Source of the DNA: Candidatus Marsarchaeota archaeon
GTDB lineage: Archaea; Micrarchaeota; Micrarchaeia; Micrarchaeales; Micrarchaeaceae
DNA length: 64,000 bases
Direction: 5' to 3'
Assembly (NCBI GenBank): GCA_023473665.1
Contig: JAMCYM010000003.1
Span: forward strand, 186,001-250,000
Shown: positions 42,001 to 45,000 of the stretch, piece by piece
Layout: the number at the start of each line of letters is the position of its first letter
Numbering within the stretch: the first letter of the stretch is position 1
Position numbers: made by a program

Positions 42001-45000
42001 ATTCTCACAATATTTTTTATTTTAGCCATAATCTCGATTTCTTTAAGAATATACTCATATTCTGTATATGTTTTACAAATTATTTTCTCTTTAATATTTT
42101 TAGTGATTGCAATATGCCTATTCTACAAATTTTTAAAAGGGATTACCACTGAAAAGCTCAAATTTAGATTCAAAGTTATTTTACTAGTGTTATTATCCTC
42201 TTTTATTATAGCCGCTTCTTCAATCGGTATAAACTCATCTCAACAAGTTATAGATATTTGTGGAGATTTAGTTATTGCTAGCACCATAAGCATACTGATA
42301 GGACTAGAATTTTACAAAGACTCTAAAAACTACATTCTAAATATTAAAACAAAAGACAAAGAAAAACTCAAAGAAGAAATAGATATGGCATTTTTCCCTA
42401 TTGTATATACTGTTATTGCTTTGTTTTTCATAGTTAGTGCTTTAATGTATTCAGCTTATCCAGGAGACATAATGTTAATGGATTTATCAATTATGCTTAT
42501 GCTACTAGGTATATCTGCGCCAATAGAGCTACTTTATGAACGCCTACTAGTAAAAATGACTTATTTCAAAAAGATTAAAGCAAAGGTGTAAAAATAGTAA
42601 CTAAAATGAAACAGTATTTAGGCTCAATCTTCGTAGCTATAGCGATTATATTATTCGTTGCATCTGACATAGTTTATACTAACTATTACCATAAAGCAGT
42701 ATCAAGCGTTTCTAACTTTGGCTCATTGTTCACCGGCATATTTTGGTTCTTTATCGGTATAATAGCAGGAGCTATATTCTTTGCGATAGGGTTAATATGG
42801 GTTTATCCCAAAGGAGCTAAATGGTTAGCAGAAAGAGGTAAATGAACGTATAAGTGATTATATGGAAAAGGAAGACAAGGAACTATTAGAAAAAATAGAT
42901 AAAATCGGAAATATTTTAATCGAAAATCAAAAGATTTCAATAAAAAATATCGGGGTCAACACATTTCTACTTACTACTGCTATACTTTTATCTGTTAGTT
43001 CTATTTCCATATCTATAATAAAAGGAATAACGATGTTTTATATTTATGTTTTAGTTATTATTTCCATAGCTGCTAGTGGTATAATAAGTTATTTACATTT
43101 AATCCTGCTGAATAAAAACCTAAAACAAAAAAAGAAAAATGCTAATCTTCCTCCATCAAACCCTGTATAAAATTGTAAAGAAGAGATAATTTTCTTTCAA
43201 GCATTCATCGTCTTTATATCACGCAGGAAAACCAAATAAGTGTTCAAACCTTTTTATAAGGGTTCCTTACTTGAAGTTAAACGCCCCCTCCGGGATTTGG
43301 ACCCGGGTTTCAAGCTCCGCAAGCTCGCGTTCTGTCCAAGCTATACTAAGGGGGCACAGTAAAGCAATATCTGATAACTATTTATATATCAGTGTCGTTT
43401 GCTTATTAAAACCGCGCACTTATCATCGGTTTGAGCGATGTTAGCGTGTTCCACACCTATTTAACAATCTTGATACCTGCCATTGTCGCGTTTGTGATAA
43501 CGCTGATCGCGACAAAGTTTATCATCGGCTACATGCGCGAGGCAGGAATAACGATAACCGACCACAACAAGGCCGACAAAAGGAAGCTGCCCAGCGGTGG
43601 CGGCATAGCAGTCGCGTTCGGCTTCACCATAGGCCTGCTTGCATATATATTCGGTAGCAGCTTCAATCTCTATTCGCCAGTGGTGCATCTGTACGAGCTG
43701 TTCGCTGTTCTTACTGCAGTGCTGCTGATAACTGTAAGCGGGTTCCTTGACGAGCTGGTGTTCAGGGGCGATGTGCAGAAGCTCACTGTCACAAAGGACA
43801 GGAAGGACACGAAGAGGGGCCTGAGGCAGTGGCAGAGGCCATTGCTCACGCTGGTAGGGGCGCTTCCATTCATGGCGATCAATGCAGGCGTGTCTACGAT
43901 AGAGCTGCCGTTCATAGGCCAGGTGTCGTTCGGGCTCTTCTATCCGTTGCTGATAATACCGCTTGCCGTCATATTCGTATCAAACTCATTCAACCTGCTC
44001 GGCGGCTTCGACGGAATAGCGAGCGGCAGCGCGCTGGTCCTCAGCGGGGCCATGCTGCTCTACGGCATACTGTTCAGCAGCTACATAGGCGCGCTTCTGT
44101 CAGGCGTGCTCTTCGCCACAGTGCTCGCGTTTTTCCTCTTCAACGTCTATCCTGCGAAGATCATACCTGGCGACAGCTTTACTTTTGGCGTGGGCGCAGC
44201 CCTCCTTGGCATAATGGTGCTGGGCAACATGGAGGCTTTCGGAGTGATAATATTCCTGCCTTTCTTCGTGGAGTTCTTCCTGCATTTGCGCAAGAAGTTC
44301 AAGGTCACAGACCTGGGCAAGCTGCAGCCTGACGGCACGTTGGCGTCACAGTACGGAAAGAAGGTCTACAGCTGGACGCACCTTATCATGAACATGAAGC
44401 GCTGCAAGGAATGGGAAGTGTCGCTCTACATGTGGTTGATAGAAATAGGGTTCGTGGCACTGGCCTTCGGGCTAAAGTTCCTTAATCTCTTATAAGCCCG
44501 GCTTTTGATTGTGCTTGGTCATGGCTGAACTTTGGCCCTGATCACGTCGACTGTAGGTCGCCTGAACGGCCTGGCTTTGCGCCTTACCGCTGCGCGTTTT
44601 TTGGTCGGGTTTCCGTAAACCAGCACGCGCCCGCCATTTGTGCCTATAAGCTCTAAATCCGAGTGCCTGATGAGCGCCTTCCTGCCAGCATAATTGGCAT
44701 AGAGCCTCGCCTCTCCTACCATGTCCTTGACGGTCTCCTCGATCTCCCTCTCAAGGCACGCGACCGCATTCTCGTTTATGCGCTCTGCACCTGCCTTCTT
44801 GAGGAATTCCTCGACGTCGTAGAGACTAAATCCTCTCTGTTTCAAATTACCTGCCCCCCAAAATGTGAAGATTAGCACCCAAGAGTGCAGAGTAGTTATT
44901 AAAGGTAAGGCTTTTAAATTAAGCTACGTGCCGCGGAGTAGCGGCATTCATGCAAATGCAAATCTGTCGTCGATATAATGATAAGGTTTGGGTTCCATCT

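What a model noticed while it worked through the whole genome (the two positions that open the first line are those of the whole stretch)
44519..44845. Second histone with an acidic fold and a long basic C-terminal tail, core to the order
Besides its canonical basic histone the genome encodes an unannotated 108-aa histone whose fold is net acidic, has Tyr at the tetramer His position, and carries a 41-aa Lys/Arg-rich C-terminal tail. It is likely a histone variant that pairs with the canonical one and brings a eukaryote-like disordered tail to DPANN chromatin. A tailed variant fixed across a DPANN order is not among described families.
Evidence so far: Pfam CBFD_NFYB_HMF E 5e-4, NCBIfam histone E 1e-6; single ortholog in 24 of 25 order genomes; basic tails also in G013 and G014; charge -2 for the fold, +11 for the tail, +7 for the canonical histone.
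(Added by a program. Inside this text positions count along the whole contig: contig position 186,001 is position 1 of the stretch shown here. "Call 12" and the like, gene names such as g00115 and contig names such as C1 are that model's own, and its searches are not shown. The text may have been shortened before it was handed on; [...] marks where a part breaks off. The agent that wrote the report below was given it as the finding of a first reader that could run no searches.)

Follow-up and report, generated by a model that had tools for sequence, protein, structure and literature searches.

The report
Micrarchaeal histone with basic C-terminal tail
A family of tiny archaea keeps an extra histone whose core has lost key DNA-gripping and stacking residues but carries a conserved-in-charge basic tail at its end, which likely lets it cap histone stacks, and its relatives show how such a tail may arise by reading through into a neighbouring gene.

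Summary
The gene is real: a 108-aa histone (44519-44845, minus strand; TTG start), fold -2, 41-aa tail +11, Tyr at HMfB His49. The tailed form is family-level, not order-level. In the window's family 68 of 73 have Tyr49, all 73 an acidic fold, and 62 a free basic tail under purifying selection. In the sister family all 69 keep His49, and 38 of 45 long tails are antisense read-through into the convergent glycosyltransferase gene, with no sign of selection for charge. The 24 out-of-order relatives read are tail-less. It is not a coiled-coil histone. Orthologues sit uncommented in a published table as ordinary basic singlets. Most likely a low-dose capping variant whose tail replaces lost DNA contacts; partner and function are untested. 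New variant of a known kind.

The parts
44519..44845 (-). Histone variant gene, 108 aa, TTG start
   Evidence: orthologues begin at the same place; 147 of 151 order genomes match
44645..44845 (-). Histone fold, residues 1-67, net -2; family motifs FSLYD and YANYAGR; Glu13 at HMfB Arg10, Glu34 at Ile31, one extra residue in loop 2 with Thr54 not kept; Arg19, Gly16, Arg52 and Asp59 equivalents kept
   Evidence: fold dN/dS 0.058
44690..44692 (-). Tyr52, equivalent of HMfB His49 at the dimer-dimer interface
   Evidence: Tyr in 68 of 73 f1, His in 69 of 69 f3
44522..44644 (-). 41-aa basic C-terminal tail (+11), no predicted secondary structure, not overlapping the neighbour in this genome
   Evidence: pLDDT 53-60; gap 23 nt; purifying selection
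44846..44859 (-). Purine-rich leader, likely ribosome-binding site
   Evidence: sequence; similar G-rich stretches before most orthologues; function inferred
43431..44495 (+). Convergent neighbour: glycosyltransferase family 4 (GPT/AglH-like); its last hydrophobic helix is what sister-family tails read in antisense
   Evidence: Pfam PF00953 E 4e-25; in 57 of 73 f1 and 62 of 69 f3 loci, 0 of 24 out-of-order
44978..45853 (+). Divergent neighbour: endonuclease IV-like TIM-barrel protein
   Evidence: Pfam PF01261 E 7e-41; in 50 of 73 f1 loci, 0 of 69 f3 loci

Best explanation
This is a conserved histone paralogue whose fold lacks the Arg10 DNA contact and the His49 stacking residue and carries a selected 41-residue basic tail; it likely works as a low-dose capping variant that would pair with one of the cell's basic histones, end histone stacks, and use the tail to hold flanking DNA. 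Shown: the gene, its conservation, the residue changes, selection on the tail, co-occurrence with two basic histones. Inferred: heterodimer formation (acidic alpha1/alpha2 face complemented by a basic partner), capping (Tyr49 plus a long C-terminal extension that would not fit inside a continuing stack), low dose (non-ATG starts), DNA binding by the tail. History, inferred: a tail-less paralogue older than the order came to lie tail-to-tail with the GPT gene; loss of its stop codon gives basic read-through tails for free (seen today in the sister family); the window's family fixed a free-standing tail together with Tyr49 and a more acidic fold.
For: Best solved relatives are HMfA/HMfB, E 6e-10. 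Position 10 is Gln/Glu/Asp in 69 of 73 f1 and never Arg/Lys; position 49 Tyr in 68 of 73; loop 2 one residue longer in 70 of 73. PMC7776873 passages name 10/19/53/54 as DNA-binding residues and a charged or hydrophobic residue 49 as the capstone marker. PMC10516927 passage says a C-terminal module would clash at the hypernucleosome core; PMC6136690 passage notes that tailed histones mostly also have interface substitutions. Tail selection: frame-blind mismatch by codon position 0.15/0.21/0.35 in 8 close pairs, 5 of 6 indels in frame; dN/dS 0.33 in 13 pairs; mean charge +9.3 against +3.9 in base-shuffled DNA, other frames carry 175 and 107 stops. Fold median -5 with tail median +10 in f1 against -1 and +1 (free part) in f3. 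The canonical histone keeps His49, Arg19, Thr54 invariant in 28 sequences and is found across the order. No ATG start available in 52 of 73 f1 genes, against 20 of 29 canonical genes starting at ATG. PMC10919886 passage: tails may bias pairing towards heterodimers and arise by ORF extension.
Against: No expression, binding or structure data. [quoted passage not shown] Tyr at 49 is not the Glu tested in capstones, and from my own knowledge H2B has Tyr there and still forms a four-helix bundle with H4, so Tyr49 may change rather than block stacking; Gly16 needed for close stacking is invariant. Five f1 genomes have His49 and five have tails of <=16 aa, so neither is essential. Fold and tail charge correlate only weakly within f1 (rho -0.21, p 0.08). 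f1 free tails show no homology to the antisense-GPT profile (mean z 0.01, 3 of 67 above 2), so descent of f1 tails from the overlap is not shown. The single-chain model is weak (pLDDT 69, pTM 0.36). The tree is a quick one on 62 columns and does not order events.
Confidence: 0.45

Rival explanations
1. It is a self-pairing histone that does not mix with the others: homodimers bind DNA or RNA mainly through their two basic tails and would bridge or condense nucleic acid, a disordered counterpart of MJ1647.
For: Whole-protein charge is basic (+9, pI 10.06). The fold's own surface motifs are invariant. MJ1647 partitions from canonical histones.
Against: In a homodimer the acidic alpha1 ends (Asp10, Glu12, Glu13) would face each other at the DNA site (inferred from the HMfB alignment). 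The tail has no predicted helix or conserved sequence to make a tetramer module.
Confidence: 0.22
2. It forms a dedicated pair with the third histone, which also lacks His49 and is strongly basic, giving an H2A/H2B-like cap on canonical (H3/H4-like) stacks.
For: The third histone matches 59 of 61 order genomes, is net basic in most of the 20 read (median about +8) and lacks His49; three single-copy paralogues are kept in genomes of under about 1.3 Mb.
Against: The three genes are unlinked. The window genome's own third histone is not basic (-1). PMC10919886 passage: no obligate heterodimer of single-fold archaeal histones is known.
Confidence: 0.15
3. It is a histone-fold regulator or adaptor rather than a packaging protein: the invariant acidic-aromatic FSLYD/YANY surface would bind another protein (transcription or repair machinery, or other histones as a chaperone) and the tail would tether it to nucleic acid.
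For: Very strong conservation of non-DNA-binding surface residues (17 invariant columns in 35 sequences; dN/dS 0.058); weak starts; divergent from endonuclease IV in 50 of 73 f1 loci.
Against: Closest solved relatives are plain archaeal histones, far ahead of TAFs; neighbours differ between families and are not chromatin genes.
Confidence: 0.12
4. The tail is a neutral read-through by-product everywhere and only the fold matters.
For: True as far as tested for the sister family: 38 of 45 long tails are antisense of the GPT helix, and the Lys/Arg share at free wobble positions is the same whether that frame is translated or not (0.52 vs 0.48, p 0.33). Tails were lost in five f1 genomes.
Against: In f1, 67 of 73 tails have >=20 aa outside any GPT overlap; an open frame of that length is kept in about 12 of 67 base shuffles; third positions change about twice as often as first and second; charge exceeds shuffles by 5 units.
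Confidence: 0.06

Closest known systems
Nucleosomal archaeal histones (HMfA/HMfB type)
   Same: Full-length three-helix fold; best solved matches E 6e-10; Gly16, Arg19, Arg52, Asp59 equivalents kept; orthologues filed as cluster 1 basic singlets in PMC13260811's supplement.
   Different: Arg10 to Glu/Gln, His49 to Tyr, Ile31 to Glu, loop 2 insertion, acidic fold, 40-aa basic tail.
Capstone histones of Methanobacteriales (Msp_0383, Msm_1260; PMC7776873)
   Same: Long-kept paralogue beside a canonical histone, non-His residue 49, likely low dose.
   Different: Tyr rather than Glu at 49; carries a tail (tailed histones were excluded from that study); different phylum; no simulation run here.
MJ1647 / Methanococcales histones (PMC10516927)
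   Same: Divergent fold plus lineage-restricted C-terminal extension.
   Different: MJ1647's 27 aa form two helices that tetramerise and bridge DNA; here about 40 aa, no predicted helix, variable sequence, strongly basic.
Coiled-coil histones (HMfC; PMC11390915)
   Same: Reported in Micrarchaeota; extension at the C-terminus.
   Different: They have a long C-terminal helix and acidic tails; here alpha3 ends at residue 69 and the tail is basic.
Asgard tailed histones HLoB/HMpB (10.64898/2026.07.02.735847) and eukaryotic tails
   Same: Basic, predicted disordered tail on a histone fold; paralogue families kept side by side.
   Different: Those tails are N-terminal, over 30% Lys, about 16-32 aa and modified; this one is C-terminal, Arg-leaning, median 40 aa, on an acidic fold, with no modification data.

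Membership tests
Archaeal histone (PF00808 / NF043032) | Score above the curated cut-off | tested here: not met
   20.8 vs 21.4 bits (21.6 with in-frame neighbours); 29.1 vs 50 bits
Archaeal histone (PF00808 / NF043032) | Homology to solved histone folds over all three helices | tested here: met
   Profile hits HMfA, HMfB, HPhA at E 6e-10 to 2e-8 over residues 9-67
Archaeal histone (PF00808 / NF043032) | Histone fold in a predicted structure | tested here: inconclusive
   Monomer model helices 8-17, 20-52, 61-69, pTM 0.36; Foldseek no match at E<=0.001, weak rows mostly H3-H4/nucleosome entries
Nucleosomal histones | His49 at the dimer-dimer four-helix bundle | tested here: not met
   Tyr in this protein and 68 of 73 f1; met in 69 of 69 f3
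Nucleosomal histones | DNA-contact residues 10, 19, 53, 54 and the loop-2 R..T....D spacing | tested here: not met
   19 and 53 kept in this protein; 10 is Glu; loop 2 one residue longer and Thr54 not kept
Nucleosomal histones | Wraps DNA as tetramers or longer stacks | not testable with these tools
   needs MNase, EMSA or cryo-EM
Capstone histones | Negatively charged or hydrophobic residue at position 49 | tested here: met
   Tyr52, counting Tyr as hydrophobic; marker from PMC7776873 passage
Capstone histones | Unstable dimer-dimer interface in simulation | not testable with these tools
   no molecular dynamics available
Capstone histones | Low expression relative to the main histone | tested here: inconclusive
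   Non-ATG start in 52 of 73 f1 genes is only a hint
Coiled-coil histones | Long C-terminal helix forming a coiled coil | tested here: not met
   No helix after residue 69, pLDDT 53-60; tails rich in Arg, Lys, Gly, Pro and unalignable
Coiled-coil histones | Highly negatively charged tails (common feature) | tested here: not met
   +11
Methanococcales (MJ1647) histones | Folded two-helix C-terminal tetramerisation module | tested here: not met
alpha3-truncated histones (face-to-face and kin) | alpha3 of 3-4 residues and shortened alpha2 | tested here: not met
   No deletion against HMfB; alpha3 of 9 residues; definition
Asgard tailed histones | N-terminal, Lys-rich tail | tested here: not met
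   C-terminal; 15% Arg, 11% Lys in f1 tails against over 30% Lys
Asgard tailed histones | Tail lysines methylated or acetylated | not testable with these tools
   needs mass spectrometry

The most novel reading that the evidence does not exclude
Micrarchaeales run a three-histone system with division of labour that parallels the eukaryotic nucleosome: canonical His49 histones build the wrapping core, and a dedicated heterodimer containing the acidic, tailed variant caps it into particles of defined size, with a tail that was born de novo by stop-codon read-through into the antisense strand of a membrane-protein gene and then fixed by selection.
Probability: 0.12. Interest if true: 0.88.

Novelty: new variant of a known kind. 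Interest (0 to 1): 0.57.

Why it matters
Long basic histone tails in archaea are described mainly as N-terminal and Asgard; described C-terminal extensions are MJ1647's folded 27-28 aa or up to 11 aa. A 40-aa basic C-terminal tail fixed in a whole family of reduced-genome archaea, together with a changed stacking residue, is an independent experiment in tail evolution. The order also shows three states side by side (no tail, overlap read-through, free selected tail), which makes the published idea that tails arise easily by ORF extension testable, and warns that surveys counting basic tails can be misled by gene overlap. Three small proteins suffice to test pairing and capping in vitro. It has no direct bearing on the descent of eukaryotic histones.

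Tried and rejected
Complex prediction of canonical + third + variant fold: no verdict (score 0.49, a control with the third histone replaced 0.40); not used for or against binding. Foldseek on the monomer model: nothing at E<=0.001. Homology of f1 free tails to the antisense-GPT peptides: none. Selection for charge on the overlapped f3 tails: none within f3 (p 0.33); the significant value on pooling with f1 reflects a family difference and was set aside. Careful tree unfinished; quick tree used, variant plus out-of-order group support 81, no out-of-order canonical histones included, G301 probably a canonical-type histone. Sigma-70 scan uninformative for an archaeon. Earlier findings by sequence: nothing. 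Coiled-coil, MJ1647-type, alpha3-type and Asgard-type membership rejected (see tests). Chance ORF rejected. Rows dropped before counts: G025 and G070 (unpublished), G055 (no strong match listed, not fetched), G080 (cut by contig end), G001 (parser skipped; 72 aa, tail-less), second copies in G107 and G144; only the 24 best-scoring of 77 matching out-of-order genomes were read.

Full report
Observation. The window holds an ORF at 44519-44845 on the minus strand, 108 aa from a TTG start behind a G-rich leader. Residues 1-67 are net -2 and residues 68-108 net +11 (8 Arg, 4 Lys, 1 Asp). It scores just under the Pfam histone cut-off and well under NCBIfam's, but a profile of 35 relatives finds HMfA, HMfB and HPhA as best solved matches, E 6e-10 to 2e-8. 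That alignment puts Glu13 at HMfB Arg10, Arg22 at Arg19, Glu34 at Ile31, Tyr52 at His49, and one extra residue in loop 2. An AlphaFold2 monomer has helices at 8-17, 20-52 and 61-69 and nothing ordered beyond (pLDDT 53-60; pTM 0.36); Foldseek on it gave no match at E<=0.001. The genome has three histone-fold genes, not two: a canonical one (+7, His49), this one, and a third divergent one without His49.

Distribution. The protein matches 147 of 151 order genomes (own family f1 74/74, f2 1/1, f3 71/75). The canonical histone query matches 151 of 151 (a few weak best hits are probably cross-matches to the variant) and the third 59 of 61. These tallies include unpublished G025 and/or G070; no sequence-level count below does. 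Across the phylum the profile matches 77 of 172 out-of-order genomes, all more weakly. I read 73 f1, 69 f3 and the 24 best out-of-order loci (dropped rows are listed under Tried and rejected). Rows with the YANYAGR motif in PMC13260811's supplement are labelled Micrarchaeaceae and one His49 row CABMGC01, so f1 and f3 are probably these families (inferred from three rows). A search of 1.84 billion representatives gave 146 hits, the strong ones all of this family, then ordinary short histones.

Three states. Out of order: 24 of 24 have tails of <=16 aa, standard loop 2, mostly a hydrophobic residue at 31 and an FSL-D-like start; most group with the variant rather than with the order's canonical histones in a quick tree (support 81), so orthology is likely, not shown. 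In f3: His49 in 69 of 69, fold median -1, Glu31 and the loop-2 insertion present; 23 have tails <=16 aa, 45 have >=25 aa, and 38 of those 45 overlap the convergent GPT gene by 70-73 nt. The overlapped peptide is the antisense of GPT's last hydrophobic helix, where Leu and Phe codons read as Lys/Arg/Asn/Ser; its charge is the same whether or not the frame is translated (0.52 vs 0.48 Lys/Arg at free positions, p 0.33; mean +4.3 vs +3.9). Only 2 of 69 have a free tail of >=20 aa and >=+5. In f1: Tyr49 in 68 of 73, fold negative in 73 of 73 (median -5), tail median 40 aa, free basic tail in 62 of 73, long overlap in only 6 of 68. So the gene is core to the order, the tailed acidic Tyr49 form to one family.

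Is the f1 tail selected? In 67 free tails the frame is open over 2553 codons while the other two frames carry 175 and 107 stops; base shuffles keep about 12 of 67 open and give +3.9 against +9.3 observed. In 13 close pairs dN/dS is 0.058 for the fold and 0.33 for the tail, and 25 of 48 changed Lys/Arg stay Lys/Arg (protein-guided alignment lowers dN). A frame-blind DNA alignment of 8 of those pairs gives mismatch 0.15/0.21/0.35 by codon position and 5 of 6 indels in frame. The tail is kept for charge and length, not sequence, with the basic peak in its middle. Against this: five f1 genomes have lost it, fold and tail charge correlate only weakly (rho -0.21, p 0.08), and f1 tails show no homology to the antisense-GPT peptides, so their origin by overlap is a hypothesis. 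Kin are not independent, so the p values overstate.

Mechanism. Residues 10, 19, 53 and 54 carry DNA binding and residue 49 marks capstones (PMC7776873, passages). The variant keeps 19 and mostly 53, loses 10 and the loop-2 geometry, and turns its alpha1/alpha2 face acidic; the canonical histone keeps His49, Arg19 and Thr54 invariant. A C-terminal module would clash at the hypernucleosome core (PMC10516927, passages), and Tyr49 and the free tail are fixed in the same family. No ATG is available in 52 of 73 f1 genes while 20 of 29 canonical genes start with ATG, a hint of low dose. I therefore favour a capping variant that pairs with a basic histone and uses its tail to regain DNA contact (0.45). 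All of these functional steps are inferred. Rivals: a non-mixing homo-oligomer like MJ1647 (0.22), a dedicated pair with the third histone (0.15), a regulator or adaptor (0.12), a neutral tail (0.06). From my own knowledge, H2B has Tyr at this position and still stacks on H4, so Tyr49 may select partners rather than block them.

What is known. Five literature searches found no description of this variant; the library lacks most subscription papers. Seen: PMC11390915 (passages, section 6, part 1 and search hits of supplement 3; its main supplementary PDF with the category table was too large to read and may bear on novelty); PMC6136690, PMC7776873, PMC10516927, PMC10919886 and 10.64898/2026.07.02.735847 (passages only; supplements not read); bioRxiv 10.1101/2025.06.26.661778 (parts 1-2 of 7 and passages) and its journal version PMC13260811 (passages; supplement search, file 3 cut when stored, file 1 unreadable). 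Orthologues are catalogued there (51 FSLYD and 13 YANYAGR occurrences); the three such rows shown are cluster 1 basic singlets, strategy 'Multiple 1', and the main text does not mention Micrarchaeota. In PMC11390915's source data, six entries under accession prefixes I recall as ARMAN-2 and Mia14 are 'Nucleosomal' or 'Undefined', none coiled-coil; which is the tailed one I could not establish. PMC6136690 lists C-terminal tails of 28 aa (MJ1647) or up to 11 aa. PMC10919886 proposes that tails arise by simple ORF extension.

Verdict. A real, conserved, apparently undescribed variant of archaeal histones: catalogued but not recognised. New variant of a known kind; interest 0.57.

Noticed in passing
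L003:1486-1692 (+) = G000:C2:93837-94043: Third histone-fold gene, 68 aa, lacking His49 and the GA loop, with a conserved Y....GD end; matches 59 of 61 order genomes, with the same two downstream genes in 18 and 20 of 20 loci.
   Followed up: partly
L001:1731-2354 (-): A RimJ/RimL-like GNAT acetyltransferase lies directly upstream of the canonical histone gene, and near it in 11 of 29 canonical loci.
   Followed up: partly
L079, L164-L167 (G056, G124, G142, G138, G092): One sister-family genus has a free, acidic 30-aa tail (-4 to -6) on a very acidic fold (-8 to -9): the opposite solution on the same gene.
   Followed up: no
L018, L088-L090, L112: Five own-family genomes have lost most of the tail (6-16 aa); in G041 basic in-frame sequence appears to continue past a TAG stop.
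   Followed up: no
L087 (G107), L092 (G144): Second copies of the variant gene, each beside a GPT end; could be duplication or bin contamination.
   Followed up: no
P0151, P0127, P0096: Other histones of unknown origin with 30-35 aa basic C-terminal tails (+10 to +14), two on canonical His49 folds.
   Followed up: no
window 43431-49260: The histone gene sits inside a lipid-carrier/N-glycosylation block: GPT, a 271-aa membrane protein without Pfam or NCBIfam hit that resembles dolichol kinases (recalled), DUF2070 and a cis-prenyltransferase.
   Followed up: partly
window 41175-41840 (+): GTP cyclohydrolase II-like gene (Pfam E 5e-44) between runs of small, Ile/Leu-rich membrane-protein ORFs.
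   Followed up: no
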